From contig JAUNSR010000003.1 in NCBI GenBank assembly GCA_030539115.1, forward strand, positions 94,636-158,635: DNA of 64,000 bases, given 5' to 3'. This DNA is from Bacteroidales bacterium (GTDB lineage Bacteria > Bacteroidota > Bacteroidia > Bacteroidales > JAUNSR01). The position numbers were made by a program, and so were the translations under genes. Shown one piece after another: positions 3,965-62,872 of the stretch (its first letter is position 1; every line of letters starts with the position of its first letter). Under the pieces are notes generated by a model. That model ran no database searches and had not been told where the DNA came from. It saw only the letters and a program-made list of their open reading frames with translations.

Positions 3965-4003
3965 TATACAGACCCATAAAATTTAAATAGAGAGTAAGTA
4001 TAT

Positions 4004-7356: not shown

Positions 7357-7443
7357 TGGTACCCAGAGCCGGGATCGAACCGGCATGGAAGTGAATCCAC
7401 TGGTGTTTGAGACCAGCGCGTCTACCGATTCCGCCATCTGGGC
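7357..7443 (-). tRNA. tRNA-Leu (anticodon CAA), class II with a long variable arm, CCA encoded
   Basis: Manual fold of the reverse complement GCCCAGATGGCGGAATCGGTAGACGCGCTGGTCTCAAACACCAGTGGATTCACTTCCATGCCGGTTCGATCCCGGCTCTGGGTACCA. It has a 7-bp acceptor stem, anticodon loop CTCAAAC and T-loop GGTTCGATCC. Confidence 0.9.
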
Positions 7444-16784: not shown

Positions 16785-17039
16785 CTATTCCTTGTTTTTA
16801 TCTTTTATAAGTATTCCTACAAGCATAAGAATGTACCCGACAAAACAAAGGTTTGGAGCAATTACTATTCTTCTGAAACTAAAAATTGATGGGTCAAATG
16901 CTTCCATAGTCGAGGAGCTTCCGCCCATCAGAATAAAGCCCAGAATAATGAAAGCAAAGGCAATTGCCATAACAATAAAGTTTGATTTGCCTAAAGCGAA
17001 ATTCTTTTTATCCATAATATATAATTGGTTTTTATACAA
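16785..17039 (-). CDS. Small two-TM membrane protein (DUF3098-like)
   Basis: 84 aa with two hydrophobic segments. It overlaps the ftsX stop by 8 nt, and its position between ftsX and uppP is conserved in Bacteroidetes as I recall. Confidence 0.6.
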
Positions 17040-17910
17040 GATACATATCGTCGCCCTTCATCCTCAGATATTTATTTATTGCAAAGAACGATGCTATTGC
17101 AGTAATAATTATTCCAAGAGCAACTATTATAGAAAAAACGGTTGTTAACAAAACAGGTGTTATCAACTCCCTTACTCCAACAAATTCATTAACGATATAA
17201 TATATCAATCCCGTCAGCAGTCCAATTGCAATTATTGAAGCAATAATTCCATTTACTATATTTGACCATATAAATGGTCTTCTTATAAATCCCGAAGTTG
17301 CTCCAACGAGCTGCATAGTATTAATAATAAATCGTTTAGAATAAACGCTGAGTCTTACTGTATTGTTGATAAGAGTAAATGATATCGCAAGCAAAATCAA
17401 TGCCAAGGCAAACAATATTACTCCTGCCCTTTTCATATTGTCATTGACAAGTTGAACTATATCCTTTCTATAATTAAATTCCGATATATCTCTTGAAAAA
17501 CTCCTTACCTGAGTCTCTATCTTTGCAATGCTATCGTTATTGGCATATTTTGAATTTAGCTTAACATCGAGAGATGCCTGTAAAGGATTAAAACCTAAAA
17601 ACTCTTCCGGATTCTCTCCCAGTTCACTTGTCAATTCCTTTAGCGCATCGACCTTGCTTATATACTGAACACTCTTTGCAAATTCAAGTTTTTTAATTCT
17701 TGTTTGAAGCCTTGACAAATCTTCAGGCTTAATATTGTCATCAAGAACAAGAGTAAAACCTATATTTTCTCTCAAATAAACAGAGACTTCCTTAGCAAGC
17801 ACTCCCATAAAGGCAATCATGCCAAGTACAAAAAGCATTAAAGAAATGCTTATTATAGTTGTCAGACGGGCTCCAAAGAATTTTCTATGTGAAACATTCA
17901 ATTTACTCAT
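17032..17910 (-). CDS. ftsX: Cell-division-type FtsX-like permease
   Basis: 292 aa: an N-terminal TM segment, a periplasmic domain, then three C-terminal TM segments. No ftsE lies adjacent. Confidence 0.75.
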   Translation of the reverse strand: MSKLNVSHRKFFGARLTTIISISLMLFVLGMIAFMGVLAKEVSVYLRENIGFTLVLDDNIKPEDLSRLQTRIKKLEFAKSVQYISKVDALKELTSELGENPEEFLGFNPLQASLDVKLNSKYANNDSIAKIETQVRSFSRDISEFNYRKDIVQLVNDNMKRAGVILFALALILLAISFTLINNTVRLSVYSKRFIINTMQLVGATSGFIRRPFIWSNIVNGIIASIIAIGLLTGLIYYIVNEFVGVRELITPVLLTTVFSIIVALGIIITAIASFFAINKYLRMKGDDMYLV

Positions 17911-18803
17911 TTGCTTTTTCTTAATATAAATATTAATGAACTGCTTTTGCGAGGATTTGTTAAAGCTGAATTTAGAGCTTTTATTCCTATAAGCATTCCT
18001 CTAAAGAATGAACAGCTTTTTCCCTGTAATTTTTCACTAAGCATAGAAATATAAAAGGCATCCAATGGCATAGGTCCAAATTTTTCAATCTTAAATTCTT
18101 CTCTTTTAGATAAAATACCTAATGTCGTTGCATTAAAATGCCACAAATGGCGGGGCACATCATAAGCTGCCCAATTTTCCTTATAATATTCTGCATCAAA
18201 AGACTCAGAATTAGGTACTGCAACAATCAAAGTGCCATCATCCTTAAGCAATGAACGAAGCTTTTCAAAAGTTCCCTTAAGATCCTGAAGATGTTCCATC
18301 ACATGCCACAAGGTAATGACATCATATTTGTTATTATCATCAACCTCATTAAGCAAATTTTTCACATCGATATTAAAATGCTCTTTTGCTACTTTTGAGG
18401 CATCATCACTTTTTTCAACACCCATAACATCCCAGCCCATTTTTTTCATAGTATGAAGAAAATAGCCTGTTCCACAACCAATATCAAGAAGCTTCCCTTT
18501 TTCCATACCGCTCTCTTTGCAGACAATTTTTGCCTTTCTGTTGAGCATTATAGTTCTTGCAATATGATATACATTATTGATTAGACCTTTTCTTGAATTG
18601 GAATGGGAAATATAATCCTTGCTTTTATAATATTCACCTATGAGGCTTTCATCAGGAAAATCCTGAGTAAAAAGAAATCCACAATTATCACATTTCATGA
18701 TTTGGAAATCTTCTTTACTTATTGAATGGTCGTTACACTTTGTAAAAGCGCTCAATTGCTGACTATTGCAAACCGGACAATATGATATATGAATTTTATT
18801 CAT
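17907..18803 (-). CDS. Class I SAM-dependent methyltransferase with an N-terminal Cys4 zinc-ribbon
   Basis: CPVCNS...CDNCGF, followed by SAM motif I LLDIGCGTGYF. An ATGA overlap with ftsX suggests translational coupling. Confidence 0.8.
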   Translation of the reverse strand: MNKIHISYCPVCNSQQLSAFTKCNDHSISKEDFQIMKCDNCGFLFTQDFPDESLIGEYYKSKDYISHSNSRKGLINNVYHIARTIMLNRKAKIVCKESGMEKGKLLDIGCGTGYFLHTMKKMGWDVMGVEKSDDASKVAKEHFNIDVKNLLNEVDDNNKYDVITLWHVMEHLQDLKGTFEKLRSLLKDDGTLIVAVPNSESFDAEYYKENWAAYDVPRHLWHFNATTLGILSKREEFKIEKFGPMPLDAFYISMLSEKLQGKSCSFFRGMLIGIKALNSALTNPRKSSSLIFILRKSK

Positions 18804-19266
18804 CTATTTGCTTTTGCATTAATATTCTTGATTCTACTAAAACCACTCCCTTGCCATAGTTATAATATTCAAAATATTATTTTTCAAAGAAATTGTATAA
18901 AACAAGAAATTAAAAATCGGGTAAAAATGTATTAATTTTACAATAATACACTCTTACCCTTAATTTGATGCAAAAGAACAAATATTTTGTCAATTTCACA
19001 CTATTAAATTTTGTTATTTAGTTTAAATATTGTCTGATAGAGCATTTTTTCTTTAAAATATTACTCCTTTAGTTTTAAATCACAAACCATTTAAAAGAAT
19101 TGAAAAGGCAATCCCTAATGACAGACTTATTATGGAAATCAAAGAATCCGCCATATTTCTTTTCCTATTCCTTAATATTAACTTTAAAATAAAATTGATA
19201 CTCTGTCTGTAGTTGTAAAACATATTATAATTGCAACTCCTTTAAAATATCTTATTTTCAAACCTA

Positions 19267-19947
19267 TTATAACACATTATTTACCTCTGTTACAATCCTA
19301 CCATCAAAAAGATTAATAATACGATGAGCATAGGATGCATCTCTTTGACTGTGAGTTACCATCACAATTGTTGCTCCTTTTTTATTTAAATCTGTAAGCA
19401 AGTTTAAAACATCAAGACCATTTTTTGAATCCAGATTACCGGTAGGTTCATCTGCAAGTATCAGTTTAGGATTTGCAATTACAGCCCTTGCTATCGCAAC
19501 TCTCTGCTGTTGACCACCAGAAAGTTGATTAGGAAAATGCTGAGCCCTATGACTAACGCCAACGCTTTTTAATGCTTCCTCAACTTTTTGTTTCCTCTCT
19601 TCACTTTTCATTTTCAGATAAGTTAAAGGCAGCTCAACATTCTCTTTTACATTTAATTCCTCTATCAAATTAAAACTTTGAAATACAAACCCTATTTTAC
19701 CTTTTCTCATCTCTGTACGTTGTTTTTCTTTTAGATGGCCAACTTCAACACCATCAAGAAAATATTCTCCGTCTGTCGGATTGTCGAGTAGTCCGAGAAT
19801 ATTGAGAAGTGTAGATTTACCACATCCTGAAGGACCCATAATGGCAATAAACTCTCCTTTTTTAACCTCCAATGAGACACTGTCCAAAGCAACTGTTTCT
19901 ATCTCCTCTGTTCTAAAAATCTTTGAAAGATTACTTATCTTAATCAT
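19267..19947 (-). CDS. ABC transporter ATP-binding protein (MacB/LolD-type)
   Basis: Walker A GPSGCGKST, signature LSGGQQQRVAIARA, Walker B ILADEPTGNLD. Confidence 0.9.
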   Translation of the reverse strand: MIKISNLSKIFRTEEIETVALDSVSLEVKKGEFIAIMGPSGCGKSTLLNILGLLDNPTDGEYFLDGVEVGHLKEKQRTEMRKGKIGFVFQSFNLIEELNVKENVELPLTYLKMKSEERKQKVEEALKSVGVSHRAQHFPNQLSGGQQQRVAIARAVIANPKLILADEPTGNLDSKNGLDVLNLLTDLNKKGATIVMVTHSQRDASYAHRIINLFDGRIVTEVNNVL

Positions 19948-19998
19948 AATATTTATTATTGAATTAATTATTACCCGGTTATCAAAGCATTATATTCC

Positions 19999-21249
19999 TT
20001 ATTTTAAAATAAGCTTTTGGTTGTCGCCAAAACTCTCATATCCGGAAACAATGACATTTTCTCCCGGAGAAAGACCCTCAAGCACTTCATAATATTGAGG
20101 ATTTTGTCTGCCTATTTTGATGTCTCTTCTTTGAGCGACAGTACCATCATTGCTCACAACATAAATCCATTTTCCACCTGTAGTTTGATAAAAAGAGCCT
20201 CTTGGAATAATAATGCCATCTTTTGCTTCTCCCAACTGAAGGTTTATATAATATGTCTGCCCTGTTCTGATATTATCAGGACGCTCGCCAACAAAAACAA
20301 AATCTGTTTTAAACTGTCCGTCTCTGACCTCAGGATAAACTTTAGATATTTCAATCACAAATTCGGCATTTTGTCTTTCAAAGATTCCTTTCAGCCCTTT
20401 TGAAACTCTGTCAATATAATGTTCATCAATTTTTGCTTCAATCTTATAATCAGAAAGCACATTAATCTGCCCTATCTTCTCACCGGAAGAAACAGACTGA
20501 CCGATTTCAGCTGTAAGCATTCCCAATTGACCATCATAAGGAGCCTTAACATTAAGATTCTCTATCCGTTGTCTTATCATTGAAAGATTGAGACGCATAT
20601 TGCTTAAACTCTCTTCCATCTGCTCAACCTGAACAGAGCGATAGATAGAGTCTTGTTTTTGACGATCTATTATAAGCTGCATTTTATTTTTTGAATACTC
20701 ATAATCCTCTTTTGCTTGAAGATAAGTCTCTTTAGCTATAAGTTTATCATTGTAAAGAGCTGAATTTTGTTCAAAAGCCCTTTTCTTTCTTCTGTTTTCC
20801 AATTGAATTGAAAGCAGTTCCTGTTTAAGATTAAGCTTTTCCTGCTCCATGGTAACCTGAGTGTTACGAAGAAAGTTCTGCTTTTCAGCAAGTTGGGCTT
20901 CACTGTCAAGAATTGAAAGGCTTAGATTTGGATTATTTAGTTTAAGGATAACATCTCCCTTTTTGACCGTACTCCCTTCATCAATAAGTTTTTGTTCTAT
21001 AATTCCCGATTCCAATGCACTAATTTGAATCAAGGACCCCGGCTGAACCTGGCCATTAAGCCTTATATAGTCATTGAAAGGATTCTTCTCTACCTGAGCT
21101 ATCGTGACAGCATTTTTCTCAACCCTCATTTTTGATGAACGATCTCCAAATACCATCCATGAAATAAGAAATAGAAATATTGTTCCTGCAATAATATATG
21201 GTATATGTTTCTTTTGAATCCCTTTTTTCTTTTCTATTTTACGATCCAT
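19999..21249 (-). CDS. HlyD/MacA-family periplasmic adaptor (membrane fusion protein)
   Basis: N-terminal TM anchor, a long coiled-coil hairpin region and a beta-barrel C-terminus. It lies between the TolC-like and ABC ATPase genes. Confidence 0.85.
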   Translation of the reverse strand: MDRKIEKKKGIQKKHIPYIIAGTIFLFLISWMVFGDRSSKMRVEKNAVTIAQVEKNPFNDYIRLNGQVQPGSLIQISALESGIIEQKLIDEGSTVKKGDVILKLNNPNLSLSILDSEAQLAEKQNFLRNTQVTMEQEKLNLKQELLSIQLENRRKKRAFEQNSALYNDKLIAKETYLQAKEDYEYSKNKMQLIIDRQKQDSIYRSVQVEQMEESLSNMRLNLSMIRQRIENLNVKAPYDGQLGMLTAEIGQSVSSGEKIGQINVLSDYKIEAKIDEHYIDRVSKGLKGIFERQNAEFVIEISKVYPEVRDGQFKTDFVFVGERPDNIRTGQTYYINLQLGEAKDGIIIPRGSFYQTTGGKWIYVVSNDGTVAQRRDIKIGRQNPQYYEVLEGLSPGENVIVSGYESFGDNQKLILK

Positions 21250-21384
21250 TTCAAATATATTTTTTTGTTTATTTTTTCTCTACTAATAAAAGCTCAATTG
21301 TTCAACCATTCTGAATTTTCATTAATCACAGTTTAAGATGAGCTCTATTGTAATATTACATTCATCATAATGTCTGACTATAAA

Positions 21385-22728
21385 TTACTTTTCTTTTATA
21401 TATGGAATCCCTTTAAAATAGTCAAGCTGCATTTTTTTTATTAAATACTGCACATGCATACCCGTTACCTCAGCTTTTGCCTGAGAAAGTTGGTTTGAAC
21501 TATTTTGCAATTCCAATGCGCTTATCATTCCTTGCTCAAATTTCTTGATATTTATTGAATGAGCCATTTCCACAGAATTTAATTTCTTCACAGCTTGAAT
21601 ATATTCCTTTGATGCTCCATTAAAATCTGCGATTGCGCTTTCAACATCCTTTCGAAGCTGATTGATGGTCTGTTCATAATTTATTTTCTGAATCAAAAAT
21701 TGGCTTTTTGCTCTTTTCTTTGATGATATTATTGATAGAGAATTAAATATTGGTATGGAAACACTTAATCCTATATACTGACCTGCATTATTCTTCATCT
21801 GGTTTTTGTAGGATGGCGCTTCATATTCCTGTCCAATATTCTTAAAATAGTTTGTTCCATATCCTGCCGAAAGTCCTATAGTAGGCAAAAAGCCTGCTAA
21901 TGAAGTTTTAGAAGAATATTTTGCCCCTTTTAGTTGATATTGTGCCTCTTTTACCTTTGGCAAAAATGCCATTGTATTGTTAAAAACAGAATCAGGATTG
22001 TCATAATTGCTGTCTGCCGTAAGTCTTTCCAACGACGAATCAATAAAAAGAGAATCTTCCGGAGGATAATTCATGATACTCTTAAGTTCAATCATTGCAT
22101 TATGAAGAATATTTTCCTGTTTTATAAGGCTGAATTTATCTGCAGCGACATTCGCCTCCATTTGGGCTACATCGGCGCCGGCTTTAACACCCAATTCCTC
22201 CATTTTTCTTGACTGAAAAAGATTATTTTCACTCTCATCGAGCTTCTCTTTTATCTGAGCCACAAGTTGACCATAATAAACGGCATTGTAGAATGATACT
22301 ATCACATTATAGGATATATTATCTTTTATTGCCTGTTTGGAATGTTTTCCCATGGTTTCAACAGCCTTGGAATATTTGAAATTATTAATTCTTACCAAAC
22401 CCCTGAAAAGAGGGAGATAAAGTGAGGCATTGTAATTATTGTTGAAGTTAGTCTTTGTCTGATAAGTATTGGTTTCCGGATCCAATGAACGGCCAAAGCT
22501 ATAATTGCCCCCAACAGATGCACTGACAGATGGTAGAAAGCTTCCTTGTGCCTCTATTTTATTCTGATGATAAATATCCTGTTGATAATTCTGCTTTTTG
22601 TTTTCAAGGGAATTATCGTTTGCATAAATAAGACAATCCTGAAGAGTATAGACCTTTTGTGAGAAAGTCCTCATTATATGGAAATTTAAGAATAACGATA
22701 GAAATAATATTTTTTGAAATATTTTCAT
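21385..22728 (-). CDS. TolC-family outer membrane efflux protein
   Basis: Signal peptide, two-repeat architecture, and 447 aa. It is the first gene of the efflux operon. Confidence 0.85.
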   Translation of the reverse strand: MKIFQKILFLSLFLNFHIMRTFSQKVYTLQDCLIYANDNSLENKKQNYQQDIYHQNKIEAQGSFLPSVSASVGGNYSFGRSLDPETNTYQTKTNFNNNYNASLYLPLFRGLVRINNFKYSKAVETMGKHSKQAIKDNISYNVIVSFYNAVYYGQLVAQIKEKLDESENNLFQSRKMEELGVKAGADVAQMEANVAADKFSLIKQENILHNAMIELKSIMNYPPEDSLFIDSSLERLTADSNYDNPDSVFNNTMAFLPKVKEAQYQLKGAKYSSKTSLAGFLPTIGLSAGYGTNYFKNIGQEYEAPSYKNQMKNNAGQYIGLSVSIPIFNSLSIISSKKRAKSQFLIQKINYEQTINQLRKDVESAIADFNGASKEYIQAVKKLNSVEMAHSINIKKFEQGMISALELQNSSNQLSQAKAEVTGMHVQYLIKKMQLDYFKGIPYIKEK

Positions 22729-22973: not shown

Positions 22974-24329
22974 ATGAATAAATCAACCGGAACCATTTGC
23001 ATTACTGACGACAACAAAAGCATTTTAAAAACACTTGATATTTTGCTGTCCGATTATTTCACCAATATCATCACTGTAACCAATCCATCTCAACTGCCGA
23101 CCTTGCTGCATGAAAAGAAGATTGATGTTGTGCTTTTGGATATGAATTTTACTGCAGGAATTAATAATGGCAATGAGGGTATATTTTGGCTTTCACGTAT
23201 TAAAGAGGAGAGTCCTGGCACACAAGTGGTTCTTTTCACAGCTTATGCATATATTGATTTGGCTGTTGTTGGTATAAAAGCCGGAGCGTTTGACTTTATT
23301 ACTAAACCATGGGATAATGAAAAACTTATCGACACATTGACAAAGGCATTAAATTTCAATAAAGCAAAAAATAAAAAGTTATCCTCACGAGACAAAAACA
23401 TAAAGCAACAGGAGACTGAGAATATTTTCATCAGTAATTCTCAATCGATGAAAAATCTTTATGAACAAATAGAAAAGATAGCTTCCACCGATGCTAATGT
23501 TTTACTTACAGGCGAAAACGGAACAGGGAAAGAGGTTTTCGCAAAACAGATTCATAAGCTTTCAAACAGGAAAAACAATGAAATGATATCTGTTGACATG
23601 GGAGCCGTCACAGAAACTCTTTTTGAGAGTGAACTTTTCGGACATGTAAAGGGAGCTTTCACAGATGCAAGAAATGATAGAGAGGGTAAATTTGAAGCCG
23701 CAAACAATAGTACTCTTTTTCTTGATGAGATAGGCAATCTCCCTTATCATTTACAGTCTAAACTGCTTGGTGTAATCCAGCAAAGAAAAGTTGTAAGAGT
23801 TGGTTCAAACAAACCCATTGATATAAATATAAGATTAATCTGCGCCACAAACTGCAATATTCCGTCGATGGTCAATTGCGGTAAGTTTAGAGAAGACTTG
23901 TTTTATAGAATTAATACCATAACAATAAACATCCCTCCATTAAGAGACCGTAAAGATGATATTATCCCTATGACTGAAATGTTTATAAAAAGATATTGCA
24001 GCATTTACAATAAACCGATAATGGAACTTTCAAATAAAGCTTCATTAAAAATCAGCTCTTATTCATGGCCCGGCAATATCAGGGAATTGCAGCATACAAT
24101 TGAAAGAGCTGTAATTATGGGAGATAAGATATTGGATGAAAATGCCTTCCAATTCAATACCATCAATATGATTGACAACAACAAAAGCCATACTTTGGAG
24201 GATCTTGAGAAAAAGGCTATTGCCGAATCAATAAACAATTGTGATGGGAATCTTTCTCTTGTGGCTCAGCAACTTGGCATTACACGACAAACTCTCTACA
24301 ATAAAATTAAAAAATACAATATCATGTAA
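22974..24329 (+). CDS. Sigma-54-dependent Fis-family response regulator (NtrC class)
   Basis: Receiver domain (DVVLLDMNF), AAA+ Walker A GENGTGKE, ESELFGH, a GAFTGA loop that reads GAFTDA, and a C-terminal Fis-type HTH LVAQQLGITRQTLYNKIKKY. Confidence 0.9.
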   Translation: MNKSTGTICITDDNKSILKTLDILLSDYFTNIITVTNPSQLPTLLHEKKIDVVLLDMNFTAGINNGNEGIFWLSRIKEESPGTQVVLFTAYAYIDLAVVGIKAGAFDFITKPWDNEKLIDTLTKALNFNKAKNKKLSSRDKNIKQQETENIFISNSQSMKNLYEQIEKIASTDANVLLTGENGTGKEVFAKQIHKLSNRKNNEMISVDMGAVTETLFESELFGHVKGAFTDARNDREGKFEAANNSTLFLDEIGNLPYHLQSKLLGVIQQRKVVRVGSNKPIDINIRLICATNCNIPSMVNCGKFREDLFYRINTITINIPPLRDRKDDIIPMTEMFIKRYCSIYNKPIMELSNKASLKISSYSWPGNIRELQHTIERAVIMGDKILDENAFQFNTINMIDNNKSHTLEDLEKKAIAESINNCDGNLSLVAQQLGITRQTLYNKIKKYNIM

Positions 24330-24411
24330 CAGTCATAAGATGTTTATCAATCATTTTTTTAATTATATAATTGCCATAAATCACTAATAGTTTAAATGCC
24401 TGAATAAGTGT

Positions 24412-24776
24412 TTTTAAATGCAGCATTTGTATCTTAGTGTTAAATAATAGAATCTGCACAAATGAAACCGCCATAACTCACTCAAAGATGAGATACCCAA
24501 CAAAAGGTATATAAATGGCGCATTTGTACCTTAGAGGTAACGGTTAGAAAAATAAATATTATACAAATGAAACCGCCATAACTCACCTAAAGATGAGATA
24601 CCCAACAAAAGGTATATAAATGGCGCATTTGTACCTTAGAGATAACGGTTAGAAAAATAAATATTATACAAATGAAACCGCCATAACTCACCTAAAGATG
24701 AGATACCCAACAAAAGGTATATAAATGGCGCATTTGTACCTTAGAGGTAACGGTTAGAAAAATAAATATTATACAA
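24412..24776 (+). repeat. Tandem array: one degenerate partial unit plus three near-identical 105-bp units (24458, 24563, 24668)
   Basis: Direct reading gives an exact 105-bp period. Units differ at 1-3 positions. Each unit ends in tatacaaATGAAA, and the last of these is the kinase start codon at 24777. Confidence 0.95.
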
Positions 24777-26075
24777 ATGAAAATCCCTATTAGAATAATC
24801 ATATCTATTATAACAGCACTACTGTCTGCCACATTAATTACAATTTCTGCGGTACATGGTTTGTGGATGCTCTTTACTATTTTTTTGATCATTCTTATTT
24901 GGACACTTTATCTTATTATTAAAAGTTATGTTGTTCAACTTAAGAAATTAAATATCCTTTTAGACGCTGTTGAGAACAACGATTTCTCATTTCATTTTCC
25001 TGAAACAAAAATTGACAACTACGAAGCTCAAATAAACTACATATTCAATAGGATGAGAAAGATTCTTTCTCAAACCAAATCTGAAATTGTTGAAAAGGAG
25101 AAATACTATTCAATCATCCTTGACAAAGTCTCAACAGGGATTATTGTCATTGACAAAAATGGCTTTGTGAGTCAGATTAACGAAGCTGCTCTTTCGTTGA
25201 TTTCTCTTCCGGTGCTTACACATATCAATCAACTGAAAAAAATTGACAACTCATTTACACAAATTGTAAAGGAACTTACACCTGGAGTTACACGCAAAAT
25301 CACTTTAAATACATTATATGGCGACAAGACTCTGACTATTGAGTCTGCCTCTATTGTTATAAATGGCAATGAGCTGAAAATTCTTGCAATTAATGATATA
25401 GAATCCGAATTGGAGGAAAATGAAATTGATTCTTGGATTAAGCTTACAAGAGTTCTCACACATGAAATTATGAACGGCATATCACCCATCACATCACTTA
25501 GTGAGCGTCTTTTAAACAAAAGTGATATAAATGATCCTTCAAGACAAAGTCTTGAAGTTATAAACCATACAGGATCGCAGTTAATATCATTTATTAATTC
25601 ATACCGACAGGTTACAAAGATTCCAACTCCTGAATGTCAAGTATTTTCATTGAAAGATTTCCTTTCTATAGAAATAACAGCAATGAAATCGACCACTAAT
25701 CTCCCAATAAAGTTCATTTTAAATGTAGAGCCAATTGATTTAATGATTTATGCAGATAAAAATTTAATAGCCCGGATTGTTCTCAACCTATTAAAAAATG
25801 CCATTCAGTCTCTTTCCCACCAAAAAGAGCCTTACATAAAAATTGATGCTTATGAAGATAAAGAGGAAAAAGTTATTATTGATTTTTCAAACAATGGTGA
25901 AAAGATACCTGAGGAAATAGCCAAACAAATTTTCATTCCATTTTTTACCACAAAAGCAAATGGTTCAGGAATCGGGCTTAGCATATCGAGACAAATAATG
26001 AGACAACATAACGGGACATTAAAACTATCATATTCAAATCAAAATGAAACGCGTTTTTCAATGATTTTTAGGTAA
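24777..26075 (+). CDS. Sensor histidine kinase (two N-terminal TM segments, PAS-like, HisKA, HATPase_c)
   Basis: H-box LTHEIMNGISPI, N-box LLKNAIQS, G-boxes FTTKANGSGIGLS. Confidence 0.85.
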   Translation: MKIPIRIIISIITALLSATLITISAVHGLWMLFTIFLIILIWTLYLIIKSYVVQLKKLNILLDAVENNDFSFHFPETKIDNYEAQINYIFNRMRKILSQTKSEIVEKEKYYSIILDKVSTGIIVIDKNGFVSQINEAALSLISLPVLTHINQLKKIDNSFTQIVKELTPGVTRKITLNTLYGDKTLTIESASIVINGNELKILAINDIESELEENEIDSWIKLTRVLTHEIMNGISPITSLSERLLNKSDINDPSRQSLEVINHTGSQLISFINSYRQVTKIPTPECQVFSLKDFLSIEITAMKSTTNLPIKFILNVEPIDLMIYADKNLIARIVLNLLKNAIQSLSHQKEPYIKIDAYEDKEEKVIIDFSNNGEKIPEEIAKQIFIPFFTTKANGSGIGLSISRQIMRQHNGTLKLSYSNQNETRFSMIFR

Positions 26076-26734: not shown

Positions 26735-26749
26735 CGCCGTATAATAAGA

Positions 26750-26812
26750 ATGTGGACGGATTTGGCCGCTTGCAACCACTAAAAAAAATGCTAAAGAAAG
26801 CTCACCTACGCC
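26750..26812 (+). promoter_or_regulatory. Possible SAM-II-class (pseudoknot) riboswitch in the metK leader
   Basis: GTGG...CCAC forms a hairpin whose loop (acggaUUUggccGCUUgcaa) can pair with the downstream A-rich tail (aaaaaaaaugcuaaagaAAGCu). This is an H-type pseudoknot topology like SAM-II. It was not verified with a covariance model. Confidence 0.35.
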
Positions 26813-26916: not shown

Positions 26917-28209
26917 ATGAATTATTTATTCACCTCAGAATCGGTGTCCGAGGGACATCCCGATAAAGTAGCCGATCAAATATCGGATGCTTTGCTTGAT
27001 GAGTTTTTGGCACAGGACGCCAACTCTAAAGTAGCTTGCGAAACGCTTGTTACAACCGGTCAGGTTGTTCTTGCCGGTGAAGTAAAATCTAACGCTTATG
27101 TAGATTTGATGGAGACAGCACGTCGTGTCATCAACAAAATCGGCTATACAAAAAGCGAGTACAAATTTGACGGAGATGCCTGCGGCGTTTTCTCTGCTAT
27201 TCATGAACAGTCGGCTGATATCAACCGTGGTGTGGAAAGAGAAAACCCTTATGACCAGGGTGCCGGCGATCAAGGCATGATGTTTGGCTACGCATGCAAC
27301 GAGACCGACACTTATATGCCTCTCTCTCTCAGCCTTTCTCACCTTCTTCTTGAGGAACTTGCTGTCATTAGACGTCAGGGTGAGGTTATGACCTATCTTC
27401 GCCCGGATTCAAAGTCTCAGGTTACTGTGGAATATAATGACAATAATGTTCCCGAAAGAATACATACAATTGTAGTTTCCACTCAGCATGATGACTTCAT
27501 CATTCCGGGAGATGCTTCAAAAGAGGCTCAGCTTGAAGCTGATGAAAAAATGCTTGCTAAAATCCGCAAAGATGTAAAAGATATTCTTCTTCCTCGTGTC
27601 GTTGCAAAACTTCCTGAAAGAGTTAAAGCTCTTTTTGATGAAAAAATTATTCTTCATGTAAATCCTACCGGAAAATTTGTTATCGGCGGTCCTCATGGAG
27701 ATACAGGCCTTACAGGCAGAAAAATTATCGTCGATACTTACGGTGGTAAAGGTGCTCACGGAGGCGGTGCCTTCTCAGGAAAAGATCCGAGCAAAGTTGA
27801 CCGTTCTGCTGCCTATGCTGCCCGTCATATCGCCAAGAATCTTGTTGCTGCCGGCGTTGCTGACGAAATTCTTGTTCAAGTAGCTTATGCTATCGGGGTT
27901 GCAAAACCTGTCAGCCTTTGCATAAATACTTACGGCAAAAACAATGTCAATCTTTCAGACTCCGAAATAGCAGAAAAGGTCGGCGAAATCTTTGACATGC
28001 GTCCTAAAGCTATAGAAGACAGACTTAAACTTCGTAATCCTATTTATGAAGAAACAGCTTCTTATGGTCACATGGGTAGAGAGCCTAAGGTGGTTGAAAA
28101 AATATTTACTTCAAAATATCTTCCTGAGCCTATTGTAAGGAAAGTTGAACTTTTCACATGGGAAAAACTTGACTATGTTGATAAAGTTAAAAAAGCATTT
28201 GGCATTTAA
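26917..28209 (+). CDS. metK: S-adenosylmethionine synthase
   Basis: [31 protein letters not shown], and [19 protein letters not shown]. Confidence 0.97.
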
Positions 28210-29428: not shown

Positions 29429-29490
29429 TGCGCCAATACTACCTTTTTTTAATGCTTTTTATTCTTTCACCTCTATTAATAATCTTTTAT

Positions 29491-30279
29491 ATGAAAAATT
29501 TCAAACCCGCAATCTTACTGATTTGCATCTTTATGCTTTGTTCCAACATCTCGGCAAAAAATCCAAAATGGAAACTCGTTTGGAAAGACGACTTTAAAAA
29601 GAATGGAGTTATCGATAAAACAAAATGGAGCAAGATTCCTCGAGGAACAGCAGATTGGAGCAACTATATGTCATCGGATGAGTCTCTTTATGATGTAAAA
29701 AAAGGAAATCTTATATTGCGTGGAAAAGTAAATGATAATTTAGAACAAGATTCCGTTCCCTATATTACCGGTGGAATATTTACAAAGGATAAGTTTACCA
29801 TAAAATATGGCAAGGTGGAAATTAAAGCCAAACTTCCAAATGCCAAAGGCTGCTGGCCCGCTTTTTGGATGCTTCCAAACATTAAAGACCGTAAATGGCC
29901 TTATGATGGTGAGATTGATATAATGGAACATTTAAATCATGATGATATCGCTTACCAAACTGTTCATTCGGGATATACTATTGATCTTGGCATTAAAGAT
30001 AATCCATTGAGCCATGCTACTGCTCCTATGGATAAAAATGGATACAACATTTACAGCGTTGAAAAACGCCCCGACAAGCTTGTTTTTGCTGTAAACGGAA
30101 AAACCACATTCGAATATCCAAGAATTGAAACAGACAAAGAGGGACAATATCCTTTTGATGATCCTTTCTATATCCTTATCGATATGCAGCTTGGTGGCAG
30201 CTGGGTAGGTCCTATCGATGACACTGAGCTTCCTGTGGAGATGCTTGTTGACTGGATAAAAGTTTATGAGATGAAATAA
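29491..30279 (+). CDS. Glycoside hydrolase family 16 (beta-glucanase/laminarinase-like)
   Basis: Catalytic ExDxxE as GEIDIMEH, plus WPAFWMLP. I prefer the ATG at 29491 (MKNFKPAILLICIFMLCSNISA signal peptide) over the GTG at 29428 given in the ORF track. Confidence 0.85.
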   Translation: MKNFKPAILLICIFMLCSNISAKNPKWKLVWKDDFKKNGVIDKTKWSKIPRGTADWSNYMSSDESLYDVKKGNLILRGKVNDNLEQDSVPYITGGIFTKDKFTIKYGKVEIKAKLPNAKGCWPAFWMLPNIKDRKWPYDGEIDIMEHLNHDDIAYQTVHSGYTIDLGIKDNPLSHATAPMDKNGYNIYSVEKRPDKLVFAVNGKTTFEYPRIETDKEGQYPFDDPFYILIDMQLGGSWVGPIDDTELPVEMLVDWIKVYEMK

Positions 30280-30342
30280 ATTTTTACTTTTCCTCTGACT
30301 AATTTCACTTTTCATCTGATCAATTTCAGTTTTCATCTGACT
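30280..30342. repeat. Three tandem 21-bp units immediately after the GH16 stop
   Basis: The three units are atttttacttttcctctgact, aatttcacttttcatctgatc and aatttcagttttcatctgact. Confidence 0.8.
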
Positions 30343-30396
30343 TGTTTCTCTTTTAATCAGTAGTTTATAAATTTCAATCAAATATTTTTTCAATAT

Positions 30397-41905: not shown

Positions 41906-42611
41906 TTTTATTGAGTATTAGAAAATAGGTATTTTAGATAATAGAGTTAAAGTCTGAAAACAAAAGAAAATTACGTGTAGAGATTTGTAAAGGTAAATTG
42001 TTAAATATTTTAAATACAAATATCAATTATTACATGGTAAATTATAAGATAAGAAAAAGATATTATGATCAACAATAAACATTTTAAAATAGATTGTTGA
42101 AAAGTTATTAACAACATGCTGCCGAAATTTATTATACATTAAAAATATTATTTTAATATATTAATATATAGATATATAAATAATAAAATTTGTAATTGTA
42201 AATCGACATAGTTTATTAAGTAATATGATATTTCCAACAATTGTTTAACAAGAAATAAACAAGAAAAGAATCAGGTATTATATTATAAAATATCAAATCA
42301 TATATAAACAAGAAAAGTAATAGTCCTTTATTTCGTTAACATTTATACATCTTTATTGTTCATCAAATAACAAAATATATTAAAATGAAATATTTAATAA
42401 ATCAATGGCATTAATCTTTTGTAGATTTATAATTAGTTTAATCATACTAATAAGTGTGTATTGAATAAACAAGAAACCTAAAATAAGTACATTTGCAGCT
42501 AAATTAAAACGCTATAACTAACATTAAGATAAGATATTCAACAATGATATTTAATTGTCGAATTGCATCCGGTGATAAAAATCTGTTCACGTAAATTAAA
42601 TAGAAATATCA

Positions 42612-42752
42612 AAAAATGGCAATTGGTATCTTGACGGTTTAAAAAGAATATTTACGGATGTAACCGCCATAACTCACCTAAAGATGAGATACCAGACAAA
42701 AGGTGTATAAATGGCGCATTTATACCTTGATGTTAAAATAAAATATTTACAA
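42612..42752 (+). repeat. Copy B of the dispersed element (degenerate partial unit plus one full unit), ending at the ATG of the next gene
   Basis: aaccgccataactcacctaaagatgagataccagacaaaaggtgtataaatggcgcatttataccttgatgttaaaa aligns with the 24.5-kb units. Confidence 0.85.
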
Positions 42753-43355
42753 ATGAAAAAAAAGCATTATATATTATTACTGTCACTTTTTATTATCTCA
42801 ATAAAAAGTTACGGACAAATGGAGGTCAACAGAAGATATCCTAAGCCATATTATAATGCTGTAATAGAAAACGGAGATACTATTCCATATATTCAGATAA
42901 GAACCATCTATTGTTTTCCAAAAAAAGTTTTTAAATCAAGAAATGAAGAGAAACTCTATTGGCGTGATGTTATGGATGTAAAAAAGACGCTTCCACTTGC
43001 AAAGCTGATACATGGGATAATGATGGAAACTTATGAATATATAGAGACACTTCCCACACAGAAAGAAAAGGATAAACATCTGAAAAAGATGCAGAACGAA
43101 CTTTTTGAAGAGTATAAGCCTGTGCTTAAGAAGCTGAATTTCAGACAGGGAAAATTACTTGTAAAGCTTATAGACAGGGAATGTAAATCATCATCTTATG
43201 AGCTTATACAGGCATATTTGGGTAGTTTTGCCGCCGGTTTTTGGCAAGGTTTCGGAAAGGTTTTCGGTGTTAGTTTAAAACAGCATTGGGATCCACAAGG
43301 CAAGGACAAGGATATGGAAAAAATTTGTTTTATGGTTGAATACGGTATGATATAA
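42753..43355 (+). CDS. Secreted hypothetical protein (about 200 aa; resembles the Bacteroidetes DUF4294 family from memory)
   Basis: MKKKHYILLLSLFIISIKSYGQ is a signal peptide. The ATG at 42753 is preferred because 42711 lies inside the repeat element. Confidence 0.7.
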   Translation: MKKKHYILLLSLFIISIKSYGQMEVNRRYPKPYYNAVIENGDTIPYIQIRTIYCFPKKVFKSRNEEKLYWRDVMDVKKTLPLAKLIHGIMMETYEYIETLPTQKEKDKHLKKMQNELFEEYKPVLKKLNFRQGKLLVKLIDRECKSSSYELIQAYLGSFAAGFWQGFGKVFGVSLKQHWDPQGKDKDMEKICFMVEYGMI

Positions 43356-45629: not shown

Positions 45630-46589
45630 TCAATTTTTAAGATAAGGTTTTCCTTTTTTCCAACCCACCTCTTGATTGGTTATAAACCATGTTTTTCCAT
45701 TATCGTTATTTCCTTGATAAAACAAATAGGTTTTCCCATTTTTGTCTTTAAAAATTTGAGGATGGCCGGATTCAGAACTGTTCCAAGATCCTTTTTCTCC
45801 ATTTTTTAAAAAAGGAGTATCAAAAACTCTTTTCCAATGTATTCCATCTTTACTTTGTGCCACACCAATTTGTTGGGGAGCATTGTTATAATTTCCGGCA
45901 TAAAACATATAAAGGGTGTTTCCTTTTTGAATAACAGAGGCTGCCTCTATGCATTTTCCCTCCCAATCAAACTCCGGTTCAAGAATTGCACTATCACCAA
46001 CTTGTTTCCAATCATTACGATTAAAGTTTGAATTTTTAGGAGCAACAGCAACTCCTTGTTTTTGAATTATGAAGTCTTTGTCTCTTGTTGCAAAATATAG
46101 AAAATAATTGTTTTTGAATTTTATTACCTCGGCATCAATAGCTCTTCCACATGTCCAATCTCCGGAAGGATTAAAGATTGGATTTGTTTCATTTCTCTTA
46201 AAATTGATTCCATCGACAGATGTAGCATGGCAGATGGCATCTGTTTTTCCATTTCCGTAAGTTTGATAGAAAATATTTATTGTATCATTTTCAACAAGAA
46301 GTCCGGGAGCACAAAGCCCTTTTTTTTCATATTCTTTTTCCGGAAGAATTTCTCCAACCTTGTTCCAGTTGATTAGGTCATTGCTCTTAGCAATTCCAAT
46401 AGCCCACCCTGTTTCATCAATAGGAGGTATGGAATAATAAATAAAATAACACCCCTTAAAATTGATGACATAAGGGTCTTTAGAAAATGGTCTTCCTATT
46501 CTTGTGGAATCTCCGTACATCATTACACTTTGTGCGCTTATGAATGAGAAGAAACCTAAAAAGATGGATAATAAAAAAATGTTTTTCAT
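45630..46589 (-). CDS. Secreted five-bladed beta-propeller glycoside hydrolase (GH43/GH130-like; family not resolved)
   Basis: Signal peptide, and repeated blade pattern (..YFIYYS.., ..INIFYQTY.., ..YFLYFATRD.., ..LYMFYAGN.., ..TYLFYQGN..). Confidence 0.6.
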   Translation of the reverse strand: MKNIFLLSIFLGFFSFISAQSVMMYGDSTRIGRPFSKDPYVINFKGCYFIYYSIPPIDETGWAIGIAKSNDLINWNKVGEILPEKEYEKKGLCAPGLLVENDTINIFYQTYGNGKTDAICHATSVDGINFKRNETNPIFNPSGDWTCGRAIDAEVIKFKNNYFLYFATRDKDFIIQKQGVAVAPKNSNFNRNDWKQVGDSAILEPEFDWEGKCIEAASVIQKGNTLYMFYAGNYNNAPQQIGVAQSKDGIHWKRVFDTPFLKNGEKGSWNSSESGHPQIFKDKNGKTYLFYQGNNDNGKTWFITNQEVGWKKGKPYLKN

Positions 46590-46735
46590 TTGTATATAAT
46601 TTAATTTTTAACATCAAGGTACAAATGCGCCATTAATATTCTTTGTTGGGTATATCATTATTGTGAGTTATGGCGATTTCATTTATGTATATTTTTATAT
46701 TTAACATCAAGGTATAAATGCGCTGCGTTAATATT
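46590..46735 (-). repeat. Copy C of the dispersed element (one full unit plus a distal partial box) directly upstream of the GH gene start
   Basis: The reverse complement reads ataaATGAAAtcgccataactcacaataatgatatacccaacaaagaatattaatggcgcatttgtaccttgatgttaaaaattaaattatatacaaATG. Confidence 0.85.
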
Positions 46736-62737: not shown

Positions 62738-62776
62738 AAGAGTAGGGCATATTTATATAAGGTAAATAAAAAAATT

Positions 62777-62872
62777 CATTTGTATATACTTTATTTTTAA
62801 CATCAAGGTACAAAAGCGCCATTTATAAACATTTTGTTTGGTATCTCATTTTTAAGTGAGTTATGCGGTTTT
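62777..62872 (-). repeat. Copy D of the dispersed element (single unit) in the convergent gap between the MBL-fold gene and the RND gene
   Basis: The reverse complement reads aaccgcataactcacttaaaaatgagataccaaacaaaatgtttataaatggcgcttttgtaccttgatgttaaaaataaagtatatacaaATG. Confidence 0.75.

What the first reader, a model, noticed from the sequence alone, without database searches (positions are those of the whole stretch)
24412..24779. 105-bp unit tandemly amplified about 3.4 times between the sigma-54 response regulator and its kinase, duplicating the start-codon context
Three near-identical 105-bp units (24458, 24563, 24668) plus a degenerate partial unit fill the gap between the two-component genes. 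Each unit ends with aaataaatattatacaaATGAAA, so the array contains three decoy copies of the kinase translation start. Each decoy opens a 4-codon mini-ORF, ATG AAA CCG CCA TAA (MKPP-stop). Only the fourth ATG, at 24777, opens the kinase frame.

Within a unit, CGCCAT can pair with the ATGGCG of the box either upstream or downstream, which gives alternative pairings. The near-identity of the units implies recent amplification or concerted evolution, and copy number could tune kinase expression relative to the regulator. I know of no described element with this architecture.
Basis: seen in the sequence. Interest (0 to 1): 0.7.

Follow-up and report, generated by a model that had tools for sequence, protein, structure and literature searches.

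The report
Start-codon-targeting repeat element, four tandem copies
The 105-bp array between the regulator and kinase genes is real, but it is a pile-up of a small non-coding repeat found at many loci in a few uncultured Bacteroidales genomes, which inserts right after a gene's ATGAA start and brings a new start codon with it.

Summary
There are three 105-bp units (98% matches), an older degenerate unit, three MKPP-stop mini-ORFs, and the true kinase start at 24777.

The interpretation needs revising, because the unit is not local sequence.
- **More copies in this window.** Copies lie at 42654-42758 (+), 46584-46723 (-) and 62775-62872 (-).
- **Copies in other genomes.** There are at least 17 more loci in four related Bacteroidales MAGs.
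- **Position and orientation.** Copies read in the sense of a downstream gene wherever one lies within about 300 nt (19 of 21 loci). They end in TATA(C/T)AAATGAA(A). In 17 of 21 loci that ATG opens a long ORF of unrelated function.
- **Empty sites.** In relatives the NrdD-NrdG gap is 10 nt and a permease pair has a 5-nt gap. The element is therefore an insertion placed just after the native ATGAA.
- **This locus.** Kinase homologues elsewhere abut the regulator gene (-1 to +5 nt), so the 447-bp spacer is derived.
- **Origin of the array.** Units 1-3 share a private 8-9-nt insertion, so they arose here by tandem duplication.

I found no Rfam match, no terminal inverted repeats, no Bacteroidetes -7 promoter box and no significant covariation.

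Best reading: a new, probably mobile, non-coding repeat that rebuilds the start codon it interrupts. Any regulatory effect on the kinase is untested. The exact copy number is unverified, because a second assembly breaks inside the array.

The parts
22974..24329 (+). Sigma-54-dependent response regulator gene (receiver, AAA+ sigma-54 activator, Fis-type HTH), upstream partner of the kinase.
   Evidence: Pfam. In homologous loci its stop abuts or overlaps the kinase start.
24330..24369 (+). Residual spacer after the regulator stop. AAGATGTTTA...AATTATATAATT weakly resembles the tail of a family 3' module, so this may be an even older, decayed unit.
   Evidence: Reading of the sequence. Not detected by the profile. 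Inference only.
24370..24467 (+). Unit 0: an old, degenerate copy. It has a 5' module remnant (GCCATAAATCAC...) and a 3' module (AATGCAGCATTTGTATCTTAGTGTTAAATAATAGAATCTGCACAAATGAAA).
   Evidence: Alignment. nhmmer 3'-module hit at 24415-24467, E = 4.8e-6.
24458..24562 (+). Unit 1 (105 bp). It carries TC at 24481-2. The independent Logan contig shows 4 further differences in this unit.
24563..24667 (+). Unit 2 (105 bp), with A at 24641.
   Evidence: Folds as a three-way junction, z = -3.9.
24668..24772 (+). Unit 3 (105 bp), the copy that abuts the kinase gene.
   Evidence: In the predicted fold the kinase AUG is left unpaired.
24773..24782 (+). Terminal direct repeat ACAAATGAAA, holding the kinase start codon (24777) and codon 2.
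   Evidence: The TRF array extends 10 nt past three whole units. The same box ends family copies at other loci.
24462..24476 (+). Mini-ORF 1, ATG AAA CCG CCA TAA (MKPP-stop). It is repeated at 24567-24581 and 24672-24686. This is the displaced start codon, closed by the element's own in-frame stop.
   Evidence: MK[S/P/A]P-stop is present in most family copies.
24521..24528 (+). CATTTGTA box, also at 24626-24633 and 24731-24738. It is complementary to the TACAAATG of both the upstream and the downstream direct repeat.
24777..26075 (+). Histidine kinase gene (432 aa). Its authentic start is the ATG of the last direct repeat.
42654..42758 (+). Second locus of the family: one full unit ending at the ATG (42753) of a secreted DUF4294 protein. 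It is probably preceded by a decayed 3' module at about 42605-42657.
   Evidence: blastn, 94% over 67 nt..
46584..46723 (-). Third locus: a partial 3' module plus one full unit (1.4 copies), ending at the ATG (46589) of a GH43/32-like glycosidase.
62775..62872 (-). Fourth locus: a decaying copy between convergent genes. Its terminal ATG opens only 8 codons.

Best explanation
**What it is.** The array is a head-to-tail cluster of one old and three young copies of a non-coding repeat family. Units are 91-97 bp in the family and 105 bp in this local variant. The family is found at many loci in a narrow clade of uncultured Bacteroidales.

**Anatomy of a unit.**
- A 5' module, (C/T)CGCCATAA-hairpin-hairpin-TATAAATGGCG, which can fold as a three-way junction.
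- An A/T-rich 3' module, CATTT(G/A)TACCTTGATGTTAAAAATAGATTATATA(C/T)AAATGAA(A).

**How it inserts (shown).** The element inserts in one orientation immediately after a pre-existing ATGAA, typically a gene's start codon plus the first bases of codon 2. This often happens at tight operon junctions.

**Consequences for the gene (follow from the sequence).**
- The element's 3' end supplies a new ATGAA(A) with its own A/U-rich leader, so the interrupted gene keeps a start codon.
- The displaced native ATG is closed after four codons by the element's in-frame TAA or TAG.
- Each copy ends in a new ATGAA target and a 9-10-bp direct repeat. Further insertion, or unequal recombination between repeats, can therefore build tandem arrays.

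**At this locus (shown and inferred).** An ancestrally abutting regulator-kinase pair was split. The resident copy was later duplicated in place, giving three near-identical units.

**Most likely mode of action (inferred).** It is a largely neutral or selfish insertion. The kinase is still co-transcribed with the regulator, since no terminator is predicted. It is translated from the element-borne start rather than by coupling to the regulator. The upstream decoy AUGs are predicted to pair with the CAUUUGUA boxes.

**Not identified.** The mobilising enzyme is unknown.
For: **A repeat family at many loci.**
- Three more loci lie in the window.
- An exact 19-mer scan of species-representative genomes finds copies in CGS10Y1-bin31 (11 loci), CGS10Y4-bin28 (2), CGS10Y1-bin50 (1) and WFFMC_MAG_166 (1). 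The other 14 hits are chance hits in unrelated phyla.
- A profile search adds more copies.

**Orientation and position.**
- In 17 of 21 loci the terminal ATG opens an ORF of 126-1001 aa.
- The genes are unrelated: kinase, NrdG, a putative oxidoreductase (MKITIIGAGNMGG N-terminus, not profiled), an ABC-2 permease, glycosidases and lipoproteins.
- Only 2 of the 19 AAATGAAA sites in the window that are not part of an element copy are gene starts.

**Insertion polymorphism with exact junctions.**
- NrdD-NrdG in bin31 reads ...AATAACAAATGAA|ATCGCC...TATATACAAATGAA|TTATCAC. Three relatives with 88-92% identical NrdD have a 10-nt spacer followed by ATGAACTATCA.
- A permease pair in bin31 reads ...CCGTAATGACGATGAA|AGCGCC...(two units)...ACAAATGAA|TAAGAAT. 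An 83% identical orthologue reads ...CCGTAATTACGATGAAGAAAGAT, a 5-nt gap.
- A further copy in W166 is absent from the syntenic site in a relative.

**The spacer is derived.** Four kinase homologues (51-57% identity) have regulator-kinase gaps of -1 to +5 nt. One junction reads TATAACAAATGAGC, a near-target.

**Local duplication.** Units 1-3 share a private insertion (TACCTTAGAGGTAACGGTTAG versus family TACCTTGATGTTAA) and differ from each other at only 3 positions.

**Arrays are a family trait.** Tandem or 1.5-copy arrangements occur at L009, L036, L028, L034, L033, L024 and window 46.6 kb. L033 holds two units of different subfamilies, which implies repeated insertion at one site.

**Recent proliferation.** One bin31 subfamily is 93-100% identical across six loci.

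**Predicted RNA fold.** In the last array unit the decoy AUG is paired and the kinase AUG is free. No terminator-like site is found in the array.
Against: - No transposase, recombinase or reverse transcriptase is encoded in the 64-kb window, and no autonomous partner was found. The mechanism of spread is therefore unknown.
- There are no terminal inverted repeats, so it is not a classical MITE.
- All genomes are MAGs. Two arrays contain scaffold gaps (L009, L048), and an independent assembly breaks inside this array. Copy numbers are therefore soft.
- The strict sense orientation and the position at real gene starts could reflect a host-useful function (promoter or leader) rather than neutrality.
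- Upstream partial units are always 5'-truncated with intact 3' ends. I can explain this by deletion plus selection but have not shown it.
- Only three presence/absence sites were examined.
Confidence: 0.62

Rival explanations
1. Portable expression cassette (a 'mobile promoter or leader'). The 3' module would carry a promoter, a strong translation-initiation region, or both. The host would retain it because it gives the downstream gene (here the kinase) expression independent of the upstream gene. Tandem copies would give several promoters or stand-by sites and raise kinase output.
For: - Copies read in the sense of a downstream gene wherever one lies within about 300 nt (19 of 21 loci), and 17 of 21 abut its start codon.
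- The family is frequent inside operons: NrdD-NrdG, a permease pair and the regulator-kinase pair.
- At L020 the 3' module alone makes up the whole spacer between two co-directional genes.
- The family meets the published descriptive definition of putative mobile promoters: 50-100 nt at 80% identity or more, upstream of non-homologous genes (PMC3488235).
Against: - There is no exact Bacteroidetes -7 box (TAnnTTTG) on either strand of the array, and the best sites have one mismatch.
- The sigma-70-type scan shows nothing above shuffles.
- Four of 21 loci are not at gene starts: window 62.8 kb, L017, L036 and L043.
- The 3' module is no more and no less structured than shuffled sequence.
Confidence: 0.17
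2. Cis-regulatory RNA switch. Each unit would be a leader whose CAUUUGUA box pairs in one of two ways. Pairing with the upstream ACAAAUG closes the three-way junction and leaves the gene's AUG free. Pairing with the downstream ACAAAUG sequesters the gene's AUG. The balance would be set by a ligand, by temperature, or by translation of the MK(S/P)P-stop mini-ORF, since a Pro-stop ending terminates slowly.
For: - The unit folds into a three-way junction with z = -3.9.
- Both pairings are available. RNAalifold picks the AUG-sequestering hairpin as the consensus, and it is 94.8% paired across copies.
- One pair switches G-C to A-U in several copies.
- The solitary NrdG copy is predicted to hide the gene's AUG, whereas the array copy exposes it.
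- The mini-ORF and its stop (TAA or TAG) are kept in most copies.
Against: - Covariation measures do not exceed shuffles. The covariation score is reached in 51 of 500 and 155 of 500 shuffles, and only 1-2 pairs change on both sides.
- There is no G-U versus A-C asymmetry between strands: 14 versus 11, and 6 versus 11.
- Hairpins decay by mismatch rather than by compensation in old copies.
- Downstream genes share no function.
- Loops are as conserved as stems within a genome, at 93-100% identity.
- There is no Rfam family.
Confidence: 0.12
3. A purely local event or an artefact: either a one-off slipped-strand duplication of the kinase's own upstream region, or a mis-assembly of a short repeat.
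For: - Units 1-3 did arise locally.
- Short-read contigs break inside the array, and a variant unit 1 exists.
- Arrays in other MAGs contain scaffold gaps.
Against: - The unit occurs at three other loci in the window and in four other genomes.
- The units carry distinguishing SNPs inside a 166-kb contig.
- Tandem copies recur in independent assemblies.
Confidence: 0.03

Closest known systems
Putative mobile promoters (PMPs; Matus-Garcia, Nijveen & van Passel 2012, PMC3488235)
   Same: Both are highly similar non-coding stretches (50-100+ nt at 80% identity or more) lying directly upstream of non-homologous genes within a genome. Some are shared between genera. The paper's Treponema brennaborense example is conserved from -5 to -120 relative to the start.
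   Different: - PMP is a descriptive class with no defined ends or mechanism.
- Here the similarity runs through the start codon and into codon 2, and the insertion junction is defined (after ATGAA).
- Head-to-tail arrays are common here.
- No promoter consensus is present.
Bacterial MITEs and other small repeats present in many copies (Correia/CREE, ERIC, RUP, BOX; general review PMC3184786)
   Same: Both are about 100 bp and non-coding. Both occur in many copies per genome, lie in transcribed intergenic regions, have secondary-structure potential and show presence/absence polymorphism. BOX elements are also modular with an internally repeated module (from my own knowledge).
   Different: - No terminal inverted repeats.
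- The flanking direct repeat is a constant sequence (ATGAA, often extended to ACAAATGAA) rather than a variable target duplication.
- A single orientation relative to the downstream gene.
- The element regenerates a start codon.
IS200/IS605-derived palindrome-associated elements (HUH/Y1 single-strand transposition)
   Same: Both show strand-specific insertion 3' of a short fixed target (4-5 nt) and lack inverted terminal repeats. Both have hairpin-rich ends and an internal sequence complementary to the flank. A right end that recreates the target would allow head-to-tail insertion. These properties of IS200/IS605 are from my own knowledge.
   Different: - No TnpA or TnpB gene was seen in the window.
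- Both hairpins lie in the 5' half, and there is no recognisable right-end hairpin.
- The family properties were recalled, not tested against a model.
- Pairing of the native 5' flank with the internal box is poor in several solitary copies.
Upstream-ORF or leader-peptide and start-codon-sequestering leaders (translational attenuators, RNA thermometers)
   Same: There is a 4-codon mini-ORF ending in Pro-stop, and an anti-AUG box that can pair with the real start.
   Different: No covariation, no functional coherence among the regulated genes, and the element is an insertion with copies at non-gene sites.

Membership tests
Classical MITE | Terminal inverted repeats | tested here: not met
   The ends are ATCGCCATAAC... 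and ...GATTATATACAAATGAA, and they are not reverse complements. The only inverted repeats are internal (TACAAATG/CATTTGTA and CGCCAT/ATGGCG).
Classical MITE | Target-site duplication flanking each copy | tested here: inconclusive
   Every copy is flanked by ATGAA(A), and the empty sites hold one ATGAA. The repeat has the same sequence everywhere, so it may be a fixed target or homology box rather than a staggered-cut duplication.
Classical MITE | Small, non-coding, multicopy, with presence/absence polymorphism | tested here: met
   Units are 91-105 bp with stops in all frames. There are 21 loci in 5 genomes and three polymorphic sites.
Classical MITE | Related autonomous IS with the same ends | not testable with these tools
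   Only 64 kb of this genome and 8-kb pieces of the relatives are available. There is no transposase in the window.
Putative mobile promoter (PMC3488235) | At least 80% identity over 50-100 nt upstream of non-homologous genes | tested here: met
   Identity is 80-100% over about 76 nt among copies upstream of unrelated genes.
Putative mobile promoter (PMC3488235) | Promoter activity | tested here: inconclusive
   No exact TAnnTTTG box in the array, and the sigma-70-type scan is at background. No transcript data are available.
Riboswitch / structured cis-regulatory RNA | Conserved secondary structure supported by covariation | tested here: not met
   Cells are 89-90% paired, but the covariation score is reached by 51 of 500 and 155 of 500 shuffles, and only 1-2 pairs change on both sides. 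There is no G-U/A-C strand asymmetry. The power is limited, with 17 closely related copies.
Riboswitch / structured cis-regulatory RNA | Association with functionally related genes | tested here: not met
   The downstream genes are a kinase, NrdG, a putative oxidoreductase (N-terminus only, not profiled), an ABC-2 permease, glycosidases, DUF4294 and lipoproteins.
Riboswitch / structured cis-regulatory RNA | Match to a curated RNA family | tested here: not met
   Rfam 15 at gathering thresholds finds nothing in 24300-24800. In E-value mode only noise appears (E of 2.7 or more). ARAGORN finds no tRNA-like gene.
IS200/IS605-type palindrome-associated element | Insertion 3' of a fixed 4-5-nt target, in one orientation, without inverted ends | tested here: met
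   The junctions lie after ATGAA at two empty-site comparisons. The orientation is constant.
IS200/IS605-type palindrome-associated element | Subterminal hairpins at both ends, and a cognate Y1 transposase in the genome | tested here: inconclusive
   Both conserved hairpins are in the 5' half. The 3' half has only a weak 8-bp, long-loop hairpin. No TnpA is present in the window, and the rest of the genome was not available.
Xer/dif-dependent module | A 28-bp dif-like site at the element junctions | tested here: not met
   The family 3' module (ATGGCGCATTTGTACCTTGATGTTAAAA) matches 15-17 of 22 arm positions of E. coli dif. That puts it among the top 16 of 128,000 positions in the window. However, the junctions lie about 30 nt away at ATGAA, and the array units have lost the XerD-like arm.
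Integron cassette / attC array | R''/R' core sites (RYYYAAC ... GTTRRRY) at cassette boundaries, and an integrase | tested here: not met
   The boundaries are ACAAATGAA and no GTTRRRY core lies at the junctions. No integrase is in the window.
Locus-specific tandem duplication (minisatellite) | The unit derives from local sequence and is found only there | tested here: not met
   Copies occur at three other window loci and in four other genomes. The last rounds of amplification (units 1-3) are nevertheless local.

The most novel reading that the evidence does not exclude
The family may be a new kind of non-autonomous mobile element that homes to start codons (ATGAA) using an internal guide. The internal box CATTT(G/A)TA is complementary to the TA(C/T)AAATG that precedes the insertion point, and it varies with it (12 G-C, 7 A-T, 1 G-T and 3 mismatches). 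The element repairs the gene it hits by carrying its own leader and ATG. Copies with intact 3' ends and variably truncated 5' ends would fit a 3'-primed copy mechanism, either reverse transcription or single-strand HUH transposition. That would make it a bacterial analogue of target-primed SINE-like elements or a new palindrome-associated type.
Probability: 0.15. Interest if true: 0.85.

Novelty: new variant of a known kind. Interest (0 to 1): 0.6.

Why it matters
- **A new way for a repeat to be harmless.** If confirmed, this small repeat has a single orientation, a fixed target that is the start codon itself, and a built-in replacement start. I did not find that strategy described.
- **Effect on operons.** It shows how tight, probably translationally coupled operon junctions (regulator-kinase, NrdD-NrdG, permease pairs) can be pulled apart by hundreds of bases without losing the downstream gene. 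That would change the stoichiometry control of two-component systems.
- **Annotation.** Each unit adds a decoy ATG and a 4-codon ORF, and arrays break short-read assemblies. Gene callers and MAG assemblers will mis-handle these loci.
- **Translation initiation.** Bacteroidetes lack Shine-Dalgarno-led initiation. A portable A/U-rich leader that works in front of many unrelated genes would be a natural probe of what makes a start site in this phylum.

Tried and rejected
- **Known RNA families.** Rfam at gathering thresholds and in E-value mode found nothing credible. ARAGORN found no tRNA-like gene.
- **Promoters and terminators.** The sigma-70-type promoter and terminator scan was at background, with no terminator in the array. 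A regex for the Bacteroidetes -33/-7 motif found no exact TAnnTTTG in the array. A sigma-54 -24/-12 reading of TGGCGCATTTGTACC, checked by eye, has the wrong spacing and was rejected.
- **RNA structure.** Covariation for the three-way-junction model and for the AUG-sequestering model was not above shuffles. The strand asymmetry of wobble pairs was absent.
- **Other collections.** JGI metagenome scans gave 0 hits for the kinase-start 23-mer and only four chance coding hits for the family pattern. There were 0 hits in viral contigs and no match in the plasmid and phage collections with blastn.
- **Orthologous genes among fetched loci.** A search for orthologues to compare filled and empty sites found only the kinase pair, so I used homologue searches instead.
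- **dif/Xer idea.** The resemblance is real but not at the junctions. The Bacteroidetes dif consensus in PMC3091885 is only in a figure and could not be read.
- **Copy-number variation between two MAGs of one species.** L033 versus L048 was uninformative, because L048 has a scaffold gap with an unmerged overlap.
- **Partner enzyme.** Pfam annotation of all 43 window genes found none.
- **Integron attC and classical MITE readings.** Both were rejected on the junction sequences.
Full report
**1.

Tandem Repeats Finder reports one array at 24458-24782 with period 105, 3.1 copies, 98% matches and no indels. An 80-nt core of the unit matches three times in the window with at most 2 mismatches, and never in 100 shuffles. 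The units start at 24458, 24563 and 24668 and differ at three positions in all. Upstream lies a degenerate unit. A family profile recognises its 3' half at 24415-24467 (E = 4.8e-6).

Each unit ends in ...TATACAAATGAAA. The ATGs at 24462, 24567 and 24672 open ATG AAA CCG CCA TAA. The ATG at 24777 opens a 432-aa HATPase_c histidine kinase, and its N-terminus aligns with homologues from residue 1. The upstream gene (22974-24329) is a receiver/sigma-54-activator/HTH_8 response regulator.

**2. The source and the reliability of the assembly.**

The kinase is identical to a protein of an NCBI MAG labelled 'Bacteroidales bacterium' (MDO5570208.1, contig of 166 kb). Its nearest homologues are only 57% identical. 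An independent Logan assembly of SRR24915786 has two contigs that match the window perfectly over 4.3 and 4.5 kb of flank. One stops 24 nt before the kinase ATG. The other stops inside unit 1, where it shows four differences from the window.

So a repeat is really there and breaks short-read assembly. There is population or assembly heterogeneity in unit 1, and the exact copy number is not independently confirmed.

**3. The spacer is derived.**

In four loci encoding the closest kinase homologues (51-57% identity), the regulator and kinase genes overlap by 1 nt or are 3-5 nt apart. One junction reads TATTATAACAAATGAGC, which nearly matches the ACAAATGAA box that bounds the units here. The window instead has 447 nt between the two genes.

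**4. The unit occurs at many loci.**

A sensitive blastn of the unit against the rest of the window found three more loci.
- 42654-42758 (+) ends at the ATG of a secreted DUF4294 protein.
- 46584-46723 (-) holds 1.4 copies and ends at the ATG of a GH43/32-like protein.
- 62775-62872 (-) is a decaying copy between convergent genes.

A 19-mer from the most conserved block (AATGGCGCWTTTRTACCTT) was scanned against one genome per species. It hit 15 stretches in four related Bacteroidales MAGs (CGS10Y1-bin31, CGS10Y4-bin28, CGS10Y1-bin50 and WFFMC_MAG_166), plus 14 chance hits in unrelated phyla. Profile searches added further copies. The family was absent from the JGI metagenomes, viral contigs, plasmids and phages.

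**5. Anatomy of the family.**

A unit has three parts.
- A 5' box (A/C)AAATGAA(A).
- A 5' module, (C/T)CGCCATAA-CTCA(N8)TGAG-ATACC(N8)GGTAT-ATAA-ATGGCG.
- A 3' module, CATTT(G/A)TACCTTGATGTTAAAAATAGATTATATA(C/T)AAATGAA(A).

ATG-to-ATG length is 87-97 nt in the family and 105 nt in this array. The difference is an 8-9-nt insertion in the 3' module that only units 1-3 share. Stop codons occur in all three frames in nearly every copy (one lacks a stop in one frame). The first is two codons after ATG AAA, giving MK(S/P/A)P-stop in most copies, with TAA or TAG.

**6. Position and orientation.**

Of 21 loci, 17 have the terminal ATG as the first codon of an ORF of 126-1001 aa. Copies read in the sense of a downstream gene wherever one lies within about 300 nt (19 of 21 loci). 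The upstream gene is usually co-directional and ends 16-85 nt before the element.

The downstream genes have nothing in common. The bare motif does not explain this. AAATGAAA occurs 26 times in the window, and only 2 of the 19 occurrences that are not part of an element copy are gene starts. Selection against insertions inside coding sequence could still produce the bias.

**7. It is an insertion, and the junction is after ATGAA.**

*NrdD-NrdG.* bin31 reads ...GTAATAACAGGAAAGAGGAAAATAACAAATGAA|ATCGCC...(96 nt)...TATATACAAATGAA|TTATCACAAT. Three relatives whose NrdD is 88-92% identical have a 10-nt spacer followed by ATGAACTATCA. A fourth (94%) has an unrelated GC-rich hairpin, but its 5' flank (AGGAAAGACAAAAAATAAATGAAC) is homologous to the flank in bin31.

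*ABC-2 permease pair.* bin31 reads ...CCGTAATGACGATGAA|AGCGCC...ATGGAA|CCGCC...ACAAATGAA|TAAGAAT, with two units of different subfamilies. An 83%-identical orthologue reads ...CCGTAATTACGATGAAGAAAGAT, a 5-nt gap.

*A third case.* A degenerate copy upstream of nrdD in WFFMC_MAG_166 is missing from the syntenic site in a relative.

In solitary copies the sequence 5' of the upstream ATG varies (GACGATGAA, TTGGATGCAA, GCAAAATGAA, CAACATGAA). That is what is expected if it is native target sequence.

The native start codon therefore stays upstream and is closed by the element's stop. The element's own 3' end supplies the working ATGAA(A) and the leader. The array does not copy the kinase's start context. 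The kinase uses a start context that belongs to the element.

**8. How the array arose.**

Units 1-3 share private characters and are nearly identical, so they come from local tandem duplication of one resident copy. The 10-bp box shared by successive units is the obvious substrate for slippage or unequal exchange. Unit 0 shares CTTAG with them against the family's CTTGA, so it is an older member of the same local lineage.

Unit 1 looks chimeric. Its first part carries the TC variant also seen in the Logan contig, and the rest equals units 2 and 3. That pattern fits unequal recombination, or else assembly mixing.

Head-to-tail or 1.5-copy arrangements are common elsewhere in the family. The permease locus shows that independent insertions at the same site also build arrays. 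Within bin31, six loci are 93-100% identical, and some copies are closer to copies in another genome than to their neighbours. This indicates subfamilies and recent spread.

**9. Tests of function.**

*RNA structure.* A unit folds as a three-way junction (-20 kcal/mol, z = -3.9). With the last unit plus the kinase start, the decoy AUG is paired and the kinase AUG is free. For the solitary NrdG copy the minimum-energy fold instead pairs CAUUUGUA with the gene's own UACAAAUG.

Across 17 copies, however, neither model shows covariation beyond shuffles. Only one pair alternates G-C and A-U. Old copies lose pairs by mismatch, and G-U pairs are no more common than A-C. The data are few and closely related, so this is weak evidence against an RNA switch. 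Together with the unrelated downstream genes and the non-gene copies, I rank that reading low.

*Promoter.* There is no exact Bacteroidetes -7 box and nothing above background for sigma-70-type sites. No terminator is predicted in the array.

*Mobilising enzyme.* None of the 43 window genes is a transposase, recombinase or reverse transcriptase.

**10. Comparison with known kinds.**

- **Putative mobile promoters.** The family meets this descriptive definition (PMC3488235).
- **Small bacterial repeats present in many copies.** It behaves like them in size, copy number and polymorphism.
- **Classical MITE.** It fails this test, because it has no terminal inverted repeats.
- **Riboswitch.** It fails on covariation, on coherence of the regulated genes and on Rfam.
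- **attC.** It fails on the junction sequences.
- **Xer/dif.** The 3' module resembles E. coli dif well above average, but the junctions are elsewhere.
- **IS200/IS605-type elements.** A fixed pentanucleotide target, single orientation, lack of inverted ends and hairpins recall these elements (from my own knowledge). No transposase or right-end hairpin was found, so this remains a lead only.

**11. Verdict.**

It is one locus of a previously unannotated (as far as I could check) start-codon-targeting repeat family, amplified in place to four copies between a sigma-54 regulator and its kinase.

What is shown: the family, its junctions, its orientation, the derived state of the spacer and the local origin of units 1-3. 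What is inferred: neutrality, read-through transcription, translation from the element-borne start and the mode of spread. I rate it a new variant of a known kind, with interest 0.6.

Noticed in passing
window 26746-26804 (+): A SAM-II riboswitch (Rfam RF01726, SAM-II long-loop; 59.8 bits against a gathering score of 44) lies upstream of the S-adenosylmethionine synthetase gene at 26917-28209.
   Followed up: no
window 57402-57573 (-): Two tandem tRNA-Asn(GTT) genes sit 96 nt apart and are 98% identical. This is also the second-best tandem repeat in the window.
   Followed up: partly
window 30282-30358 (+): A 21-bp unit (TTTCACTTTTCATCTGACTAA) is repeated 3.7 times at 78% matches, just downstream of a GH16 gene (29452-30279). 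Its nature is unknown.
   Followed up: no
window 281-7156 (+): A complete type I restriction-modification system (HsdM, HsdS, HsdR). A tRNA-Leu(CAA) gene lies just downstream at 7357-7443 (-).
   Followed up: no
window 42711, 46633, 46726 and family 3' modules in L-loci: The family 3' module (ATGGCGCATTTGTACCTTGATGTTAAAA) matches 15-17 of the 22 arm positions of E. coli dif, including 9-10 of 11 in the XerD arm. That places it among the 16 best of 128,000 window positions. The array units at 24.5 kb have lost the XerD-like arm.
   Followed up: partly
L041 4643-4746 and L042 (NrdD-NrdG spacer in a relative of bin31): At the same junction where bin31 has the element, this relative has a different insert: a GC-rich perfect hairpin, CAATGGCAGC-CGAGGC-GCTGCCATT. 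This suggests that tight operon junctions in this clade take up small inserts repeatedly.
   Followed up: no
L009 5855-5942 and L048 1373-1472: Runs of N (scaffold gaps) lie inside or next to tandem copies of the element in two NCBI MAGs. In L048 the gap is flanked by an unmerged duplicate of the gene start. Arrays of this element evidently disturb MAG assembly.
   Followed up: partly
L033 5145-5240 (-), L029 4243-4342 (-): A divergent subfamily of the element begins ATGAAAGCGCCAT. Its 5' module is shorter, with one clear hairpin in the L033 unit, and it is 71-79% identical to the main type.
   Followed up: partly
window 17032-22728 (-) with 22974-26075 (+): The regulator-kinase pair is divergently adjacent to an outer-membrane efflux protein, a HlyD-type adaptor, an ABC ATPase and an FtsX-type permease. 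The kinase homologues in other genomes sit next to OEP and MacB/FtsX genes too. The two-component system therefore probably controls this efflux system.
   Followed up: partly
L024, L028, L034, window 46677-46723, window ~42605-42657, L020: Partial copies always keep the 3' end and lose the 5' end to different extents (28 nt, about 50 nt, about 60 nt). At L020 a 3' module alone fills the whole gap between two genes. I have no tested explanation for this.
   Followed up: partly
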